Source: Escherichia coli | Lineage (GTDB): Bacteria > Pseudomonadota > Gammaproteobacteria > Enterobacterales > Enterobacteriaceae | Reading direction: 5' to 3' (one strand) | Length of the DNA stretch: 64,000 bases | Assembly: GCF_003334335.1 (NCBI RefSeq) | Contig: NZ_QOWQ01000006.1 | Shown here: positions 38,018-45,355 of the stretch, one piece after another | How positions within the stretch are numbered: position 1 is the first letter of the stretch | Layout: every line of letters begins with the position of its first letter | Made by a program: the position numbers and the translations under genes | The notes under the pieces: generated by a model | Told to the model about the DNA's origin: nothing | The model's database searches: none | What the model saw: only the letters and a program-made list of their open reading frames with translations

Positions 38018-38710
38018 CTAGTGATAACCACGCGCGGTCATAAAATCCGTAATCGCTTTTTCTGCATCAACCAACACCTGTTCCAGTGGCTGATTGGCAT
38101 CGATATCAACCAGTTGTGCACCACCAAAGGTTAACTGTGGCGTTATGGCAATCTTCCTCGCCAGCGATTCCCGTTTATGGTCGGGTTTACGTGCACAGGC
38201 AACTTCAAGGTCAACATTGAGTTTGATGACCAGATCAGGCTTATGGCTCGCCATCCAGTGAAACGCTTTACGTTCCTGGCTTGCCAGCCATGAGACAAAA
38301 CGACCACCTTCAACGTTAGGTGGGAACACCGTACCATCGTAAGCGCCAGGAATTTGGTCCTGAGGATAACGGTCGGTTAGAACAATTAACCCGCGACGAC
38401 GACAGGCAAGCATATGACGAAAGCGCAGTAAGCGACGGGCGACAAACGCTGTAATTACCAGCGCCGGAACTGGTCCAGGCAATTTTTTTGCTGTTTTCAC
38501 CTGATTTCGTTCAATTGTTTTATGTAAGGATTTTCCCATCAACGGTAATTTTGTCACTGCACGACCGACATTTCCGGCCTGTTTTCCTAAATGAACTCTT
38601 TCGGCAGCACCATATTTTTCGACAACGGTAATAAGATGTTCACACACCGTTGACTTGCCTGAACCATCGCTACCAATAACGGCAATTAATGGAGGTGTTA
38701 TTGACTGCAT
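38018..38710 (-). CDS. yghT: P-loop NTPase, predicted kinase-like protein YghT
   Basis: 230-aa ORF with N-terminal Walker [10 protein letters not shown]; shares TDRYPQ and RKPDH motifs with yghS and yghR. Confidence 0.85.
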
Positions 38711-38790
38711 GAATATATCCTTTAATTTAAATATCCATTAAAAATATTTATTTGGTTAATATGTTTTTATGAAAGCGTAATTCAGGTCAA

Positions 38791-38814
38791 TGTCACAATT
38801 AACCATTGTCACAA
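38791..38814. promoter_or_regulatory. direct repeat TGTCACAAT x2 in yghT/yghS divergent promoter region
   Basis: tgtcacaattaaccattgtcacaat; the second copy sits in the perfect palindrome ATTGTCACAAT. Confidence 0.3.
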
Positions 38815-38883
38815 TAAGGTTGAACGGATATTCTGAGCACGGACCACGTAATATTCAATACATTATTTACTGCCGGGTTTTTC

Positions 38884-39597
38884 GTGAATCAACGTAATAT
38901 GTCAATAATTAATTCCACGCCAGTGCGTGTTATTGCCATTGTAGGATGTGATGGTTCAGGTAAATCGACCCTCACGGCAAGCCTGGTAAATGAACTGGCA
39001 GCAAGAATGCCAACAGAACACATTTATCTCGGGCAATCGTCCGGGCGAATTGGCGAATGGATTTCACAGCTCCCTGTTATTGGCGCACCTTTTGGGCGTT
39101 ATCTGCGAAGTAAAGCGGCACATGTGCACGAAAAGCCCTCAACACCGCCTGGCAATATTACTGCACTGGTTATCTATCTGCTTTCCTGCTGGCGGGCGTA
39201 CAAGTTTCGCAAAATGTTGTGTAAAAGCCAGCAAGGCTTTCTGCTCATCACCGACCGCTACCCGCAGGTTGAAGTGCCGGGGTTTCGCTTTGATGGCCCG
39301 CAATTGGCAAAAACCACGGGCGGTAACGGTTGGATAAAAATGTTAAGGCAGCGCGAGCTGAAGCTGTACCAATGGATGGCATCTTATTTGCCCGTATTGT
39401 TGATTCGTCTTGGCATTGATGAACAAACCGCGTTTGCGCGTAAACCTGACCACCAACTGGCAGCGTTACAGGAAAAAATCGCCGTTACGCCGCAACTGAC
39501 ATTCAATGGCGCAAAGATCCTTGAACTGGATGGGCGACACCCCGCCGATGAAATTCTGCAAGCGTCACTACGCGCAATTCACGCCGCGCTTTCCTGA
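38884..39597 (+). CDS. yghS: P-loop NTPase, predicted kinase-like protein YghS
   Basis: 237-aa ORF (GTG start) with Walker A GCDGSGKST; paralog of yghT and yghR. Confidence 0.85.
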   Translation: MNQRNMSIINSTPVRVIAIVGCDGSGKSTLTASLVNELAARMPTEHIYLGQSSGRIGEWISQLPVIGAPFGRYLRSKAAHVHEKPSTPPGNITALVIYLLSCWRAYKFRKMLCKSQQGFLLITDRYPQVEVPGFRFDGPQLAKTTGGNGWIKMLRQRELKLYQWMASYLPVLLIRLGIDEQTAFARKPDHQLAALQEKIAVTPQLTFNGAKILELDGRHPADEILQASLRAIHAALS

Positions 39598-40432: not shown

Positions 40433-41782
40433 TTGGCGGGTTTTAACATCAAACATTGGTTTGCAGATGGCGCGTTTCGCACCATTATTCGCAATAGCGC
40501 CTGGTTAGGCTCCAGTAATGTCGTGAGCGCCTTGCTGGGTCTGTTGGCGCTCTCGTGTGCCGGTAAAGGGATGACGCCCGCCATGTTTGGCGTACTGGTG
40601 ATTGTGCAATCGTACGCCAAGTCGATCAGCGATTTTATTAAGTTTCAGACATGGCAACTGGTGGTTCAGTACGGAACACCAGCATTAACCAACAATAATC
40701 CGCAGCAATTCCGCAATGTCGTCTCATTTTCCTTCTCGCTGGATATCGTCAGCGGCGCGGTGGCGATTGTCGGTGGCATTGCCTTACTGCCATTCCTTTC
40801 CCATTCATTAGGTCTGGATGACCAAAGTTTTTGGCTGGCAGCGCTCTATTGCACGCTCATTCCTTCAATGGCTTCCTCCACGCCGACCGGCATTCTGCGT
40901 GCGGTAGATCGCTTCGATTTAATTGCTGTACAGCAGGCGACGAAACCTTTTCTGCGCGCAGCGGGGAGCGTCGTAGCCTGGTATTTTGACTTTGGTTTTG
41001 CGGGTTTTGTTATTGCCTGGTACGTGTCGAATCTGGTTGGCGGCACCATGTACTGGTGGTTTGCCGCGCGCGAATTACGCCGCCGAAATATCCATAACGC
41101 CTTCAAATTGAATCTGTTTGAGTCTGCCCGATACATTAAAGGCGCGTGGAGTTTTGTCTGGTCAACCAACATTGCCCACTCCATCTGGTCGGCGCGTAAC
41201 TCGTGCAGCACAGTGTTGGTGGGGATCGTGTTAGGACCCGCTGCCGCCGGGTTATTTAAAATCGCCATGACATTCTTCGACGCCGCCGGAACGCCAGCGG
41301 GTTTGCTGGGTAAAAGTTTTTACCCAGAGGTGATGCGTTTAGATCCGCGCACCACCAGACCGTGGTTGTTAGGTGTGAAGTCCGGTTTACTGGCGGGCGG
41401 AATCGGTATTCTGGTGGCGCTCGCGGTGTTGATCGTCGGCAAGCCGCTCATTTCGCTGGTGTTTGGCGTTAAGTATCTCGAAGCGTATGACCTGATTCAG
41501 GTGATGCTGGGCGCAATTGTGATTTCGATGCTGGGCTTCCCTCAGGAGTCATTGCTATTGATGGCGGGAAAACAGCGCGCTTTTCTCGTGGCGCAAACCA
41601 TCGCCTCAATCGGCTACATCGTATTGCTGTTCATGTTCTGTCATCTGTTTGGTGTGCTGGGAGCAGCGTTTGCTTACTTCGGTGGGCAATGTCTGGACGT
41701 GGCGCTCTCGTTAATTCCAACCTTAAAGGCATTTTTTCAGCGCCATTCCTTGCTTTATAACGCAGCCGGAGAGAAATCCTGA
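40433..41782 (+). CDS. yghQ: MOP-superfamily (Wzx-like) flippase YghQ, full length
   Basis: 449-aa polytopic ORF; start codon uncertain (track start is TTG); stop overlaps the next gene start (TGATG). Confidence 0.8.
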   Translation: MAGFNIKHWFADGAFRTIIRNSAWLGSSNVVSALLGLLALSCAGKGMTPAMFGVLVIVQSYAKSISDFIKFQTWQLVVQYGTPALTNNNPQQFRNVVSFSFSLDIVSGAVAIVGGIALLPFLSHSLGLDDQSFWLAALYCTLIPSMASSTPTGILRAVDRFDLIAVQQATKPFLRAAGSVVAWYFDFGFAGFVIAWYVSNLVGGTMYWWFAARELRRRNIHNAFKLNLFESARYIKGAWSFVWSTNIAHSIWSARNSCSTVLVGIVLGPAAAGLFKIAMTFFDAAGTPAGLLGKSFYPEVMRLDPRTTRPWLLGVKSGLLAGGIGILVALAVLIVGKPLISLVFGVKYLEAYDLIQVMLGAIVISMLGFPQESLLLMAGKQRAFLVAQTIASIGYIVLLFMFCHLFGVLGAAFAYFGGQCLDVALSLIPTLKAFFQRHSLLYNAAGEKS

Positions 41783-42606
41783 TGATGAGAAAATATTTCC
41801 CGCTTGAGGCGAGCGAGCGTCTATTTGTTGCGATTGAAGAAGATGATGTCGTTGATGCACAGGTTAGTTTGCCGCCGACTATTGCACTAAGTTGTACCAC
41901 CGAAATCATTCATGATAATTACGCGTTATGCCTGCAATTCTGGCTCAATGGCGTTGATCGTCAGGAGTTACTGCGTTTAGTTCGCAAACAAGCCAAAGGC
42001 GATGAGCTGACTGCTGATGAGCGCAAACAATTTAAATACATGCGAGCGCGCTACAAGCACCTGCGTTTTGCGCAACGGCTGTATTTAAAGAAGCATCAGG
42101 CCGGATTTTTATTCGGCAAAACGACCGTTTTTCTGGGGCGTTTTCAGGACGGCTTTCGTAACGGTAAGAAAAATATTGTGTCGTATTACGGCAACCTGTT
42201 ACGGATTTATTTAAGCTCTCCGGTCTGGTCGTTGGTGAACTATTCATTACGCCATAGCCAGTTAGAAAGCGTAAGCAGTTTTATTGCCTATCGGCAAAAG
42301 CAAATGCATACCCTGAAAGAGATTATTGCCAAACCGCGACTAACCGGTAGGGAATTTCATGATGTGCGAAAAATCATCAGCCAGCAGGTTTCTTATTACG
42401 ACACCTTAAGATCGCTTGATCCTGAAAATAAAGAGGCGTTACAGATATCCCGCTTCCTCGCCGCCATTAATGGCCTGATGGGAGATAAACACGACGACAT
42501 GGTGGCGGATGATATGGAAAACCGCCAGTCGTATGATGCACCGGTGGCGCTGGATAGCGATATTCGTCAGCGCTTAGAGCTGCTGATTTCGCGTTTTCCG
42601 CTATAG
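41782..42606 (+). CDS. hypothetical cytoplasmic protein (274 aa), coupled to yghQ
   Basis: ORF MMRKYFPLEASERLFVAIEEDD...; 1-nt overlap with the yghQ stop; no motif I can recognise. Confidence 0.6.
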   Translation: MMRKYFPLEASERLFVAIEEDDVVDAQVSLPPTIALSCTTEIIHDNYALCLQFWLNGVDRQELLRLVRKQAKGDELTADERKQFKYMRARYKHLRFAQRLYLKKHQAGFLFGKTTVFLGRFQDGFRNGKKNIVSYYGNLLRIYLSSPVWSLVNYSLRHSQLESVSSFIAYRQKQMHTLKEIIAKPRLTGREFHDVRKIISQQVSYYDTLRSLDPENKEALQISRFLAAINGLMGDKHDDMVADDMENRQSYDAPVALDSDIRQRLELLISRFPL

Positions 42607-42614
42607 CCGGAGCA

Positions 42615-43178
42615 ATGATGTCATCTCGTTTGATTATTGCGTTGATTATCATGCTCTTAGCCCCGGGTGTGCAGGCACACAATTTCGTCACTGGCAAAAC
42701 GGTTACCCCTGTTTATATCCAGGAAGGCGGCGAGCTGCTTCTGAATAGCGACGACGAAATTCACTACCAAAAGTGGAACAGCACACAATTAGCGGGAAAA
42801 GTCCGCATTATTCAGTATATCGCCGGGCGTAAGTCGGCGAAGAAAAAGAACTCACTGTTAATTAAAGCGGTTGAAGCGGCAAACTTTCCGCAGGATCGTT
42901 TTCAGCCCACCACCATTGTGAACACCGATGATGCCATCTTTGGTACTGGCTATTTTGTTGTTGGCAAAATCGAAAAAAATAAACGCCGCTATCCGTGGGC
43001 GCAATTCGTTATTGACGGCAATGGACAGGGACGCGTTGCCTGGCGCTTGCCGGAGCAGAGTTCAACCATTCTGGTGCTGAATAAAGCCGGGCAAATTCAG
43101 TGGGCAAAGGACGGCAGCCTGACGCCGGAAGAGGTAGATCATGTCATTGCGTTGGCGCAGAAACTGATCAATGAATAA
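42615..43178 (+). CDS. periplasmic YtfJ/HI0045-like protein
   Basis: 187-aa ORF with signal peptide MMSSRLIIALIIMLLAPGVQA and motifs (AGKVRIIQYIAGR, TTIVNTDDAI, QWAKDGSLTPEEV) that I recall from YtfJ. Confidence 0.65.
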   Translation: MMSSRLIIALIIMLLAPGVQAHNFVTGKTVTPVYIQEGGELLLNSDDEIHYQKWNSTQLAGKVRIIQYIAGRKSAKKKNSLLIKAVEAANFPQDRFQPTTIVNTDDAIFGTGYFVVGKIEKNKRRYPWAQFVIDGNGQGRVAWRLPEQSSTILVLNKAGQIQWAKDGSLTPEEVDHVIALAQKLINE

Positions 43179-43208
43179 AAAACTCAAAGGATTGAGGGCG
43201 TTAGTGAG

Positions 43209-44279
43209 ATGAAGCTGGTTGAACACTACATCATGCGTGGTACGCGCCGTCTGGTGCTGATTATCGTCGGTTTTCTGATCTTTATTTTCGCCAGCTACTC
43301 CGCACAGCGTTATCTGACCGAAGCGGCAAATGGGACATTAGCTCTTGATGTTGTGCTGGATATCGTTTTCTACAAAGTACTGATTGCACTGGAGATGTTG
43401 TTACCTGTTGGTCTGTATGTGTCAGTTGGCGTGACGCTAGGGCAGATGTATACCGACTCGGAAATTACCGCTATCTCTGCGGCGGGGGGCAGTCCGGGAC
43501 GCTTGTACAAAGCCGTTCTTTATCTGGCGATACCGCTAAGTATTTTTGTCACCCTTCTGTCGATGTATGGTCGTCCGTGGGCTTATGCGCAGATTTATCA
43601 ACTGGAGCAGCAGTCGCAGTCGGAGCTGGATGTTCGCCAGTTGCGGGCAAAGAAATTTAACACTAACGATAACGGACGAATGATCCTTTCGCAGACGGTT
43701 GATCAGGATAATAATCGCCTGACTGACGCGCTGATTTATACTTCTACTGCCAATCGAACCCGCATTTTCCGCGCCCGTTCGGTTGATGTGGTTGACCCAT
43801 CACCCGAGAAACCGACCGTTATGTTGCACAACGGCACTGCCTATCTTATCGATCATCAGGGGCGTGATGACAACGAACAGATCTACCGTAATCTGCAATT
43901 ACATCTGAATCCGCTGGATCAAAGCCCTAACGTCAAACGCAAAGCGAAATCGGTCACGGAGCTGGCGCGCTCCGTCTTTCCAGCCGATCATGCCGAACTG
44001 CAATGGCGGCAAAGCCGTGGCCTGACCGCATTGTTGATGGCGCTGCTGGCCATTTCATTAAGTCGGGTAAAACCGCGGCAAGGGCGATTTTCAACGTTAT
44101 TGCCACTGACGTTGCTGTTTATTGCCATTTTTTATGGCGGTGACGTCTGCCGTACGCTGGTGGCTAACGGCGCGATTCCCCTCATTCCTGGTTTGTGGTT
44201 AGTACCCGGACTCATGCTAATGGGCCTGCTGATGCTGGTCGCACGCGACTTCTCTTTGCTGCAGAAATTTTCCCGATGA
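43209..44279 (+). CDS. LptF/LptG-family (YjgP/YjgQ) permease, first of pair
   Basis: 356-aa ORF; YTDSEITAISAAG and KPRQGRFSTLLP resemble the LptF motifs YTESEIT and NPRQGR; multiple TM segments with a large periplasmic loop. Confidence 0.75.
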   Translation: MKLVEHYIMRGTRRLVLIIVGFLIFIFASYSAQRYLTEAANGTLALDVVLDIVFYKVLIALEMLLPVGLYVSVGVTLGQMYTDSEITAISAAGGSPGRLYKAVLYLAIPLSIFVTLLSMYGRPWAYAQIYQLEQQSQSELDVRQLRAKKFNTNDNGRMILSQTVDQDNNRLTDALIYTSTANRTRIFRARSVDVVDPSPEKPTVMLHNGTAYLIDHQGRDDNEQIYRNLQLHLNPLDQSPNVKRKAKSVTELARSVFPADHAELQWRQSRGLTALLMALLAISLSRVKPRQGRFSTLLPLTLLFIAIFYGGDVCRTLVANGAIPLIPGLWLVPGLMLMGLLMLVARDFSLLQKFSR

Positions 44280-45355
44280 ATGTTTTCAGCCGCTATTTAA
44301 TCCGTCATCTCTTTCTCGGTTTTGCCGCCGCCGCAGGGCTATTGCTGCCGCTTTTTACCACCTTCAACCTGATTAACGAACTGGATGATGTCAGCCCGGG
44401 CGGTTATCGCTGGACTCAGGCGGTGCTGGTGGTGCTAATGACCTTACCGCGCACACTGGTCGAACTTTCGCCATTTATCGCCTTATTGGGAGGGATTGTC
44501 GGCCTGGGGCAGTTATCGAAAAACAGTGAGCTTACCGCCATTCGCAGCATGGGGTTTTCTATCTTCCGTATTGCACTGGTGGCGCTGGTTGCAGGGATAT
44601 TGTGGACTGTTTCGTTAGGCGCGATAGATGAGTGGGTAGCGTCGCCATTACAGCAACAGGCGTTGCAAATCAAATCGACCGCCACCGCGTTGGGGGAGGA
44701 CGATGACATTACCGGCAATATGCTGTGGGCCAGGCGTGGTAATGAATTTGTGACGGTGAAATCGCTGAACGAGCAGGGCCAGCCGGTGGGCGTGGAGATT
44801 TTTCATTATCGCGACGATCTCTCGCTCGAATCCTACATTTATGCACGCAGTGCCACCATTGAAGACGACAAAACGTGGATCCTGCATGGTGTGAATCATA
44901 AAAAATGGCTGAATGGCAAAGAAACGCTGGAAACATTAGATAATCTTGCCTGGCAATCGGCCTTCACCAGTATGGATCTTGAAGAGTTATCAATGCCGGG
45001 CAATACTTTTTCTGTCCGTCAGCTTAATCATTACATCCATTATTTGCAGGAAACCGGGCAACCCAGCAGCGAATACCGCCTTGCACTGTGGGAAAAACTG
45101 GGGCAACCCATCCTGACCCTGGCGATGATTTTGCTGGCTGTGCCGTTTACCTTTAGCGCCCCGCGCTCGCCAGGGATGGGTAGCCGTCTCGCTGTAGGTG
45201 TCATCGTTGGCTTACTCACCTGGATCAGCTATCAAATCATGGTCAATCTGGGATTGCTATTTGCGTTGAGCGCACCTGTTACCGCGCTCGGTTTACCGAT
45301 AGCGTTTGTGCTGGTGGCGTTGAGCCTGGTGTATTGGTATGACAGACAACATTAA
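44276..45355 (+). CDS. LptF/LptG-family (YjgP/YjgQ) permease, second of pair
   Basis: Start at MNVFSRYLIRHLFLGF via ATGA overlap with the upstream stop; LptG-like motifs (ELTAIRSMGFS, RSPGMGSRLAVG); the track ORF is extended 27 codons upstream. Confidence 0.75.
   Translation: MNVFSRYLIRHLFLGFAAAAGLLLPLFTTFNLINELDDVSPGGYRWTQAVLVVLMTLPRTLVELSPFIALLGGIVGLGQLSKNSELTAIRSMGFSIFRIALVALVAGILWTVSLGAIDEWVASPLQQQALQIKSTATALGEDDDITGNMLWARRGNEFVTVKSLNEQGQPVGVEIFHYRDDLSLESYIYARSATIEDDKTWILHGVNHKKWLNGKETLETLDNLAWQSAFTSMDLEELSMPGNTFSVRQLNHYIHYLQETGQPSSEYRLALWEKLGQPILTLAMILLAVPFTFSAPRSPGMGSRLAVGVIVGLLTWISYQIMVNLGLLFALSAPVTALGLPIAFVLVALSLVYWYDRQH

What the first reader, a model, noticed from the sequence alone, without database searches (positions are those of the whole stretch)
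38711..38883. Repeated TGTCACAAT motif in the yghT/yghS divergent promoter
The AT-rich 170-bp divergent region contains tgtcacaattaaccattgtcacaat, i.e. two copies of TGTCACAAT 15 bp apart, the second lying within the perfect palindrome ATTGTCACAAT. This is a plausible binding site for a dimeric regulator controlling yghT and the yghSRQ export operon. I do not recognise it as a standard CRP, FNR or Fur site.
Basis: seen in the sequence. Interest (0 to 1): 0.3.

Follow-up and report, generated by a model that had tools for sequence, protein, structure and literature searches.

The report
yghS promoter -35 box, duplicated nearby
The repeated TGTCACAAT is real, but its downstream copy is most simply the conserved -35 box of an ordinary promoter for yghS, the exact repeat is confined to Escherichia, and no regulator can be assigned to it.

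Summary
The sequence is as described, with one correction. TGTCACAAT lies at 38791-38799 and 38807-38815, which is 16 bp start to start, not 15. It sits in the 173-bp, 29.5% GC spacer between yghT (-) and yghS (+) of a non-K-12 E. coli.

The repeat alone is weak evidence. A 9-nt direct repeat this close occurs in 4.2% of shuffles of the spacer and in 2.6% of real 173-nt windows.

Orthologous spacers from 12 genera are more informative.
- Copy 2 sits in an invariant ATTGTCAC whose TTGTCA lies 17 nt (16 in two genera) upstream of an invariant TATTCT. The spacer between them has diverged. This is the signature of a sigma-70 promoter about 43 nt upstream of yghS.
- Copy 1 keeps only CACAAT outside E. 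coli (E. albertii TGCCACAAT, Hafnia GCCACAAT).
- The right arm of the "palindrome" ATTGTCACAAT is not conserved.
- One E. coli strain lacks exactly one 16-bp unit.

No CRP, FNR, Fur, PhoB, SlyA or other consensus I tried fits better than chance. I found no second site, no adjacent regulator gene and no published start site.

An operator for an unknown factor remains possible. The conserved dyad ACAAT-N5-ATTGT, centred near -40, is the candidate. Overall this is an ordinary, low-interest finding.

The parts
38791..38799 (+). Copy 1 of TGTCACAAT. Only CACAAT (38794-38799) is conserved outside E. coli.
   Evidence: for the sequence. for conservation: the fraction of 7 genera identical to E. coli is 0.48 for TGT and 0.86 for CACAAT. 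for the orthologous sequences.
38807..38815 (+). Copy 2 of TGTCACAAT. It overlaps the predicted -35 hexamer. Its last three bases (AAT) are poorly conserved.
38805..38815 (.). The left arm is conserved; the right arm is not.
   Evidence: per-position table: positions 38813-38815 are identical to E. coli in 5, 4 and 3 of 7 genera.
38795..38809 (.). Alternative dyad ACAAT-N5-ATTGT, spanning the right half of copy 1 and the left half of copy 2. It is centred at 38802, about -39 to -41 from the predicted start. It is perfect in Escherichia, Hafnia and C. amalonaticus.
   Evidence: It is the only occurrence in the window, and it is found at the orthologous position in L005, L014 and L017..
38796..38812 (+). 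Conserved block A, CAATTAnnCATTGTCAC, the phylogenetic footprint that contains the -35 hexamer.
38806..38811 (+). Predicted sigma-70 -35 hexamer TTGTCA (5 of 6 matches to TTGACA) of the yghS promoter P1.
   Evidence: consensus scan; top-scoring + strand promoter in every near-group genus, 47-51 nt from the yghS start; conservation 0.93.
38829..38834 (+). Predicted -10 hexamer TATTCT of P1, 17 nt downstream of the -35 hexamer. It lies within the invariant block ATATTCT.
   Evidence: conservation 0.98, against 0.66 for the intervening spacer.
38849..38861 (+). Conserved block C, TAATATTCAATAC, which reads TACAAT in most other genera. It is the -10 of the ancestral proximal promoter P2 in Serratia, Pantoea, Rahnella, Erwinia and Kosakonia. 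In E. coli it has degenerated to TTCAAT.
38018..38710 (-). yghT, a P-loop kinase-like protein, divergently transcribed.
38884..39597 (+). yghS, a P-loop kinase-like protein with a GTG start. It is the first gene of the operon yghS-yghR-yghQ and downstream genes.

Best explanation
Copy 2 is the -35 region of a conserved sigma-70 promoter for yghS, which I call P1: TTGTCA at 38806-38811, a 17-nt spacer, TATTCT at 38829-38834. The inferred start is near 38841, giving a 5' UTR of about 43 nt.

The promoter lies in an AT-rich spacer. The literature reports that yghS is H-NS-associated and goes up about 3-fold when SlyA is overproduced.

Copy 1 sits at about -50 to -42. It is a partly conserved upstream element with the core CACAATTA. 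In the E. coli lineage it came to match copy 2 exactly through one or two substitutions, or it is the eroded remnant of an old 16-bp tandem duplication. The exact 9-mer repetition is therefore incidental rather than the functional unit.

Shown here: the sequence, the conservation pattern, and the constant hexamer spacing. Inferred: that RNA polymerase uses these hexamers, the start site, and any role of the upstream element (alpha-CTD contact or a factor).
For: - The consensus scan finds TTGTCA-17-TATTCT as the only + strand promoter-like site in the spacer.
- A position-weight scan ranks it first at 10.7 bits, reached by 3% of shuffles.
- The same pair, at the same 47-51 nt from the yghS start, ranks first in E. 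albertii, three Escherichia clades, Hafnia, C. amalonaticus, Pseudocitrobacter and Shimwellia (TATCCT, 16-nt spacer).
- Per-position conservation over 7 genera is 0.93 for the -35 hexamer and 0.98 for the -10 hexamer, against 0.66 for the spacer between them and 0.62 for the yghT-proximal half.
- Pantoea cypripedii, with a 320-nt spacer, still carries TTGTCAC-18-TATTTTCAGCA far upstream.
- Copy 1 is not kept as TGTCACAAT outside E. coli and its cryptic clades.
- The repeat alone is within chance expectation.
- A natural E. coli allele (strain 504838) has lost exactly one 16-bp unit.
- No known-regulator consensus fits better than chance.
- H-NS association and SlyA induction of yghS are reported in PMC5797941.
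Against: - No experimental transcription start could be found. The gene names are absent from the supplements held for six papers: Kim 2012, ROSE 2023, Gao 2021, PRECISE 2019, Shigella M90T 2020 and EDL933 2023. Neither gene names nor my remembered, possibly inexact, coordinate prefixes occur in the Cappable-seq supplements.
- Conservation extends beyond what a -35 hexamer needs. A38805 and C38812 are invariant, and CAATTA at 38796-38801 is kept in 5-7 of 7 genera.
- Block B (ATATTCT) could equally serve as the -35 (TTCTGA) of the proximal promoter P2, whose -10 (TACAAT, block C) is the only element shared by all 12 genera. Read on the other strand, blocks C and B form TTG(A/T)AT-17-CAGAAT pointing at yghT.
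- The hexamer assignment is therefore not unique.
- The -10 hexamer TATTCT is only a 4 of 6 match.
Confidence: 0.55

Rival explanations
1. The site is the operator of an unidentified transcription factor overlapping the -35 region. The factor would bind either the conserved dyad ACAAT-N5-ATTGT (38795-38809, centred about -40, a class II activator or repressor position) or the two CACAAT-containing units as direct repeats. It would control yghS and perhaps yghT.
For: - The conserved block A runs 17 bp (38796-38812), longer than a -35 hexamer.
- The dyad ACAAT-N5-ATTGT is perfect, with unchanged spacing, in Escherichia, Hafnia and C. amalonaticus, and matches 9 of 10 positions in Shimwellia. Indels occur elsewhere in the spacer.
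- CACAA is enriched on the yghS strand of the orthologous spacers, with 17 found against 4.1 +/- 1.8 expected. This includes (A)GCACAA(A/T)A elements in Serratia, Kosakonia and Pantoea.
- The 60 nt around the motif are the least polymorphic part of the spacer within E. coli.
Against: - No factor is identified, and none of the 15 consensus sequences tried fits better than chance.
- No regulator gene adjoins the cluster in any of the 12 genera.
- There is no second site in the 64-kb window or elsewhere in the fetched loci.
- The sequence appears in no searchable paper as a binding site.
- The CACAA enrichment counts related lineages more than once.
- Pluralibacter and Pseudocitrobacter have lost the upstream half.
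Confidence: 0.3
2. The repeat is a neutral product of replication slippage or chance in AT-rich, H-NS-bound DNA and has no function. The conservation would reflect only short divergence times and linkage to yghS.
For: - The repeat is within chance expectation: 4.2% of shuffles and 2.6% of real windows.
- The exact 9-mer identity exists only in E. coli and its close clades.
- A strain with one unit deleted exists.
Against: - ATTGTCAC and ATATTCT are invariant, or nearly so, across genera whose YghS proteins are only 71-75% identical, while the sequence between and around them has diverged.
- That pattern is not expected for neutral DNA.
- Only about 4 of 4686 E. coli genomes fail to cover the segment in full.
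Confidence: 0.1
3. The element acts on the other strand. The complement of the motif, GTGACA, would serve as a -35 hexamer for yghT. Alternatively the repeats would act as RNA (AUUGUGACA twice) in a long yghT 5' UTR started from TTGAAT-17-CAGAAT.
For: - GTGACA-17-TATTTT in Hafnia (10.2 bits), GTGACA-17-TAGTAT in C. amalonaticus (10.6 bits) and GTGACA-17-CAGACT in Pseudocitrobacter (9.1 bits) are the best minus-strand promoter predictions in those genera.
- C38812, which lies outside the + strand hexamer but inside GTGACA, is invariant.
- TTGAAT-17-CAGAAT is the best minus-strand prediction in Escherichia.
Against: - In E. coli neither GTGACA copy has a usable -10 hexamer at 15-19 nt. The best candidate is TTTCAT, which lacks the A at position 2 and scores 6.4 bits.
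- No RNA family matches the region.
- No start-site data are available.
Confidence: 0.05

Closest known systems
Sigma-70 housekeeping promoter (-35 TTGACA, 17-bp spacer, -10 TATAAT), silenced by H-NS in an AT-rich spacer
   Same: TTGTCA-17-TATTCT has both hexamers and the spacing conserved across genera while the spacer itself has diverged. The region is 29.5% GC. yghS is listed as H-NS-bound and induced by SlyA overproduction (PMC5797941).
   Different: No start site has been mapped. The -10 hexamer is weak (4 of 6). Conservation extends about 10 bp upstream of the -35 hexamer. A second, older promoter (-10 TACAAT) lies 20 nt downstream.
Bidirectional or overlapping divergent promoters arising from sequence symmetry (Warman et al. 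2021, Nature Microbiology; cited from my own knowledge, not read here)
   Same: TTGTCAC reads as a -35-like hexamer on both strands: TTGTCA on one and GTGACA on the other. Blocks B and C form -35/-10 pairs in both orientations.
   Different: The described cases share symmetrical -10 elements, not -35 elements. In E. coli the minus-strand partners lack a usable -10 hexamer.
Class II activator or repressor operators overlapping the -35 region (the CRP/FNR type of arrangement, centred near -41.5)
   Same: A conserved 5-N5-5 dyad, ACAAT-N5-ATTGT, is centred about -39 to -41 from the inferred start.
   Different: The half-sites and the spacing match neither CRP (TGTGA-N6-TCACA) nor FNR (TTGAT-N4-ATCAA). 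The -35 hexamer is already good, so activation is not obviously needed. No protein is known for the site.
PhoB pho box (direct repeats of CTGTCAT with an 11-bp period, replacing the -35 hexamer)
   Same: The TGTCA core occurs as a direct repeat, with one copy at the -35 position. The phosphate transporter gene pitB is the next gene beyond yghT.
   Different: The period is 16 bp, not 11 bp. The best match to the 18-bp consensus has 6 mismatches, lies elsewhere in the spacer and is no better than chance.

Membership tests
Sigma-70 promoter | A -35 hexamer close to TTGACA | tested here: met
   TTGTCA at 38806-38811 matches 5 of 6 positions.
Sigma-70 promoter | A -10 hexamer with A at position 2 and T at position 6, lying 16-18 bp downstream of the -35 hexamer | tested here: met
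   TATTCT at 38829-38834 follows a 17-bp spacer and matches 4 of 6 positions.
Sigma-70 promoter | Hexamers and their spacing conserved in orthologues while the spacer sequence drifts | tested here: met
   Conservation is 0.93 and 0.98 for the hexamers against 0.66 for the spacer. The spacing is 17 nt in five genera and 16 nt in two.
Sigma-70 promoter | An experimentally mapped transcription start 6-8 nt downstream of the -10 hexamer | not testable with these tools
   yghS and yghT are absent from the supplementary text held for seven studies: four start-site studies (Kim 2012, ROSE 2023, Shigella M90T 2020, EDL933 2023), the Cappable-seq study, a ChIP-exo study (Gao 2021) and a transcriptome-module study (PRECISE 2019). 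For Cappable-seq I also searched coordinate prefixes that I recalled from memory and that may be inexact.
Operator of a dimeric regulator (palindromic site) | An inverted repeat with both arms conserved in orthologous promoters | tested here: inconclusive
   For ATTGT-C-ACAAT the right arm is not conserved (5, 4 and 3 of 7 genera at 38813-38815). The alternative dyad ACAAT-N5-ATTGT is perfect in three genera, matches 9 of 10 positions in a fourth, and is lost in two.
Operator of a dimeric regulator (palindromic site) | A cognate DNA-binding protein, often encoded nearby | tested here: not met
   No regulator gene flanks the cluster in any of the 12 genera examined.
Operator of a dimeric regulator (palindromic site) | Further sites with the same motif at other promoters (a regulon) | tested here: inconclusive
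   There are none in the 64-kb window or in the 29 fetched loci beyond the orthologous position. A whole genome could not be scanned.
CRP site | TGTGA-N6-TCACA | tested here: not met
   The best match has 3 mismatches of 10, and 159 of 300 shuffles do as well. The two TCACA half-sites are in direct orientation.
FNR site | TTGAT-N4-ATCAA | tested here: not met
   The best match has 3 mismatches of 10, lies away from the motif, and is equalled in 261 of 300 shuffles.
Fur box | The 19-bp consensus GATAATGATAATCATTATC | tested here: not met
   8 mismatches of 19, equalled in 278 of 300 shuffles.
PhoB pho box | Two CTGTCAT-type repeats with an 11-bp period | tested here: not met
   The period here is 16 bp. 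The best consensus match has 6 mismatches of 18 and lies elsewhere in the spacer.
SlyA site | TTAGCAAGCTAA, or the relaxed form TTA-N6-TAA | tested here: not met
   The only TTA-N6-TAA is at 38748-38759, 32 bp upstream of copy 1. The best full-consensus match has 4 mismatches, no better than chance.
H-NS-silenced AT-rich promoter region | AT-rich DNA bound by H-NS in vivo | tested here: inconclusive
   The AT-richness was tested here and is met: 29.5% GC against 51% for the window. H-NS binding was not tested here. It is taken from PMC5797941, which cites two ChIP studies for yghS.

The most novel reading that the evidence does not exclude
Block A (CAATTAnnCATTGTCAC), with the dyad ACAAT-N5-ATTGT, is the operator of a still unidentified regulator that is not encoded nearby. 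This regulator would switch on an H-NS-silenced envelope gene cluster conserved across Enterobacterales. The cluster encodes three P-loop kinase paralogues, a MOP-family flippase, a YtfJ-family protein and a second LptF/LptG pair. The duplicated E. coli site would then give two adjacent binding units.
Probability: 0.25. Interest if true: 0.35.

Novelty: new member of a known kind. Interest (0 to 1): 0.15.

Why it matters
The analysis gives a concrete, testable promoter model for an uncharacterised and normally silent E. coli operon. The operon runs from yghS through yghR and yghQ to the lptF/lptG paralogues. The model names which bases to mutate, and a natural single-copy allele (strain 504838) can serve as a ready-made control. 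If a factor does bind the conserved dyad, it would be the entry point to the regulation, and hence the function, of a conserved envelope gene cluster. As it stands, this is one more predicted sigma-70 promoter.

Tried and rejected
- **Known-regulator consensus sequences.** I tried 15 from my own knowledge: CRP (two forms), FNR, Fur, PhoB, DnaA, MatP matS, CusR/HprR, MlrA, SlyA, ArcA, LexA, the generic GntR/FadR form, RcsAB and IHF. None fitted the spacer better than dinucleotide shuffles at a level that would survive testing 15 patterns (lowest: matS, reached by 18 of 300 shuffles).
- **Other sigma factors.** I checked sigma-E, sigma-54, sigma-28 and sigma-32 patterns by eye and rejected them.
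- **Structured RNA.** Rfam returned only a meaningless hit with E-value 0.8.
- **Dispersed repeat family.** Rejected, because the segment occurs once per E. coli genome.
- **Literature.**
  - Full-text search for the motif strings found only unrelated primers.
  - yghS and yghT appear only in gene lists: SlyA overexpression, a weak FlhDC genomic SELEX peak whose proposed boxes lie inside yghT, and a silkworm virulence screen.
  - yghQ and yghR mentions were equally uninformative about regulation.
- **Start sites and ChIP peaks.** Searches of the supplements of seven papers found nothing.
- **De novo k-mer enumeration across 11 genera.** This did not beat shuffles, because the spacers are AT-rich. 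Only TTGTCAC (6 genera) and ATACAAT (6 genera) reached the shuffle maximum.
- **Search for a regulon.** There is no other ATTGTCACAAT-like site or dyad above chance in the window or in the fetched loci.
- **Metagenome pattern scan.** I considered it and did not run it. By my rough estimate, not measured, patterns with enough specificity would recover only relatives already in hand, and looser ones would give thousands of chance hits.

Full report
**What is there**

The window is E. coli. The stretch 38650-38950 is 100% identical to K-12 MG1655 and to many other strains, and is present in 4694 of 5426 complete genomes. The RefSeq annotation of the identical K-12 stretch gives yghT at 38018-38710 on the minus strand. 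It gives yghS at 38884-39597 on the plus strand with a GTG start, followed by yghR and yghQ.

The window is not K-12 itself. yghQ is intact and is followed by a 274-aa protein, a YtfJ-family protein and LptF-like and LptG-like paralogues, where K-12 carries IS5.

The 173-bp spacer is 29.5% GC, against 51% for the window. TGTCACAAT occurs at 38791-38799 and 38807-38815 and nowhere else in the 64 kb.

The copies are 16 bp apart start to start, not 15. They extend to the 12-mers CAATGTCACAAT and CATTGTCACAAT. ATTGTCACAAT is a 5+1+5 inverted repeat.

**Is it more than chance?**

Not on the repeat alone.
- A direct repeat of at least 9 nt at a distance of 9-30 appears in 4.2% of dinucleotide shuffles of the spacer.
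- It appears in 19 of 734 real 173-nt windows of this same sequence.
- Relaxed versions of the palindrome, the dyad and the direct repeat occur in the window at chance frequency, and the near-matches lie inside genes.

**Orthologous spacers**

I collected the divergent yghT/yghS spacer from:
- three Escherichia clades and E. albertii;
- Hafnia paralvei, Shimwellia, Citrobacter amalonaticus, Pseudocitrobacter and Pluralibacter (the "near group", with spacers of 171-189 nt);
- Erwinia endophytica, Rahnella, Kosakonia, two Serratia species and Pantoea.

The divergent gene arrangement is kept in all of them.

Within Escherichia the motif block is invariant. In E. albertii copy 1 is TGCCACAAT. In Hafnia it is GCCACAAT, in Shimwellia GTCACAAA and in C. 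amalonaticus ACGACAAT. It is absent from Pseudocitrobacter and Pluralibacter.

The core of copy 2, ATTGTCAC, is kept in six of the seven near-group genera. Its last three bases drift: CAAC, CATT, CGGC.

| Segment | Fraction of 7 genera identical to E. coli |
|---|---|
| TGT of copy 1 | 0.48 |
| CACAAT of copy 1 | 0.86 |
| TTGTCA | 0.93 |
| 17-nt stretch after TTGTCA | 0.66 |
| TATTCT | 0.98 |
| yghT-proximal half of the spacer | 0.62 |

**Promoter reading**

The consensus scan finds TTGTCA-17-TATTCT as the only plus-strand promoter-like site in the spacer. A weight-matrix scan ranks the same pair first in every near-group genus, always 47-51 nt from the yghS start. In Pluralibacter the -35 hexamer has decayed to GGGCCA. 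The matrix uses hexamer frequencies approximated from my own knowledge of published compilations.

The score of 10.7 bits is reached by 3% of shuffles. The prediction therefore carries weight only because both hexamers and their spacing are conserved while the spacer between them is not. Pantoea keeps a similar unit, TTGTCAC-18-TATTTTCAGCA, far upstream in its 320-nt spacer.

The simplest account is that copy 2 is the -35 region of a sigma-70 promoter. The inferred start is near 38841, which gives a 43-nt leader.

**Complications**

A second conserved block, TAATAT(A/T)CAATA at 38849-38861, is the only element shared by all 12 genera. It is the -10 hexamer (TACAAT) of a good promoter in the distant genera: TTGAAC-16-TACAAT in Serratia and Pantoea, TTGATA-16-TACAAT in Rahnella, TTGAAG-18-TACAAT in Erwinia and TTGCTC-16-TATAAT in Kosakonia. 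In E. coli it has become TTCAAT, which lacks the key A. Its -35 position is occupied by TTCTGA, which overlaps TATTCT.

Read on the other strand, the same two blocks give TTGAAT-17-CAGAAT pointing at yghT. The complement of the motif, GTGACA, is the best minus-strand -35 hexamer in Hafnia, Citrobacter and Pseudocitrobacter, but it has no usable -10 partner in E. coli.

The hexamer assignment is therefore not unique, and only start-site mapping can settle it. I found no start-site or binding data for these genes in the supplements of seven genome-wide studies.

**Is there also a factor?**

Conservation runs over 17 bp, CAATTAnnCATTGTCAC at 38796-38812, which is more than a hexamer needs. The dyad ACAAT-N5-ATTGT at 38795-38809 is centred about -40. 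It is perfect, with unchanged spacing, in Escherichia, Hafnia and C. amalonaticus. CACAA is also over-represented on the yghS strand of the orthologous spacers, with 17 found against 4.1 expected, although related lineages are counted more than once.

Against a factor:
- none of the 15 known consensus sequences I tried fits better than chance;
- no regulator gene flanks the cluster in any genus;
- there is no second site in the window or the fetched loci;
- the sequence is not described in searchable papers.

**Within-species data**

| Segment | Genomes 100% identical |
|---|---|
| 38781-38840 (motif and P1) | 94% of 4686 |
| 38716-38775 | 59% |
| 38836-38895 | 65% |

The common variant in the motif segment is C38788T, just outside copy 1. 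Strain 504838 has lost exactly one 16-bp unit, leaving CAATGTCACAATAAGG. The repeat can therefore collapse by slippage or recombination. A single copy, with ATGTCA at the -35 position, exists in at least one sequenced genome.

**Known regulation**

PMC5797941 lists yghS as induced 3.1-fold by SlyA overproduction and as H-NS-associated in two ChIP studies. The only TTA-N6-TAA in the spacer lies at 38748-38759, not at the motif. PMC9962212 reports a weak FlhDC genomic SELEX peak for this spacer, with intensity 11. Its proposed boxes lie inside yghT at about 38539-38582 (compared).

**Verdict**

This is a conserved cis-element of the yghS promoter, most probably read by RNA polymerase as a -35 hexamer (confidence 0.55). 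An overlapping operator for an unknown factor is the main rival (0.3). It is a new instance of a known kind of element and of low general interest.

Noticed in passing
window 40433-45355: The window carries an intact gene cluster downstream of yghS and yghR. It comprises a 449-aa MOP-family flippase (YghQ), a 274-aa protein with no family match, a YtfJ-family protein, and a second LptF-like and LptG-like permease pair that score above NCBIfam's curated cut-offs. In K-12 this cluster is truncated by IS5. The cluster looks like a system for making or exporting an envelope glycolipid and appears to be uncharacterised.
   Followed up: partly
L026 (E. coli strain 504838, NZ_CP025856.1) 195-215; corresponds to window 38791-38815: A natural allele lacks exactly one 16-bp repeat unit, reading ...GGTCAATGTCACAATAAGG... 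The spacer is 157 nt instead of 173 nt. It is a ready-made single-copy control and shows that the repeat can collapse.
   Followed up: yes
window 38715-38725 and 38731-38741: A second direct repeat with the same 16-bp spacing, ATATCCTTTAA and ATATCCATTAA, lies next to the yghT start. On the yghT mRNA these read A(A/U)GGAUAU twice. One copy is the Shine-Dalgarno sequence, so the pair resembles a CsrA-type pair of GGA sites. Both copies are conserved in Escherichia but not clearly beyond it.
   Followed up: no
L023 2501-3238 (E. coli GCA_043186385.1), protein P0019: Some E. coli strains carry a chimeric gene in place of yghS and yghR. Residues 1-128 are identical to YghS and residues 129-245 are identical to YghR 136-252. 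It evidently arose by recombination between the two paralogues, with a junction at DRYPQ/AEISGFY. The upstream spacer differs at only one position (T38734C), which lies outside the motif.
   Followed up: yes
L015, L019, L021, L024 (Kosakonia, Serratia, Pantoea) 1-1400; L025 (Rahnella) 1-1403: The yghT/yghSRQ cluster has two genomic contexts. It lies next to pitB in Escherichia, Citrobacter and Pseudocitrobacter (also a 499-aa ORF in the same position in Hafnia, not checked). In Kosakonia, Serratia and Pantoea it lies next to an acyl-carrier-protein gene and a class I/II aminotransferase of about 390 aa. In Rahnella it lies next to the LptF/LptG paralogues. This hints at a lipid-linked product.
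   Followed up: no
window 38550-38556 (inside yghT): A third TTGTCAC heptamer lies within the yghT coding sequence. It sits inside the pair of boxes that PMC9962212 proposed for its weak FlhDC SELEX peak. This is probably coincidence.
   Followed up: no
L015, L019, L021, L024 spacers, 120-150 nt upstream of yghS: A conserved block, AGCACAAAATAA-AAGA-CC, is shared by the long spacers of Serratia, Kosakonia and Pantoea. The block AAAAGTCGC near yghT is kept in Kosakonia, Serratia proteamaculans, Pantoea and Rahnella, and in degraded form in Erwinia endophytica and S. marcescens; on the other strand it reads as a predicted yghT -35 hexamer, GCGACT-17-TA(A/C)A(A/T)T, in Kosakonia and S. proteamaculans. 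Neither block is present in E. coli.
   Followed up: partly
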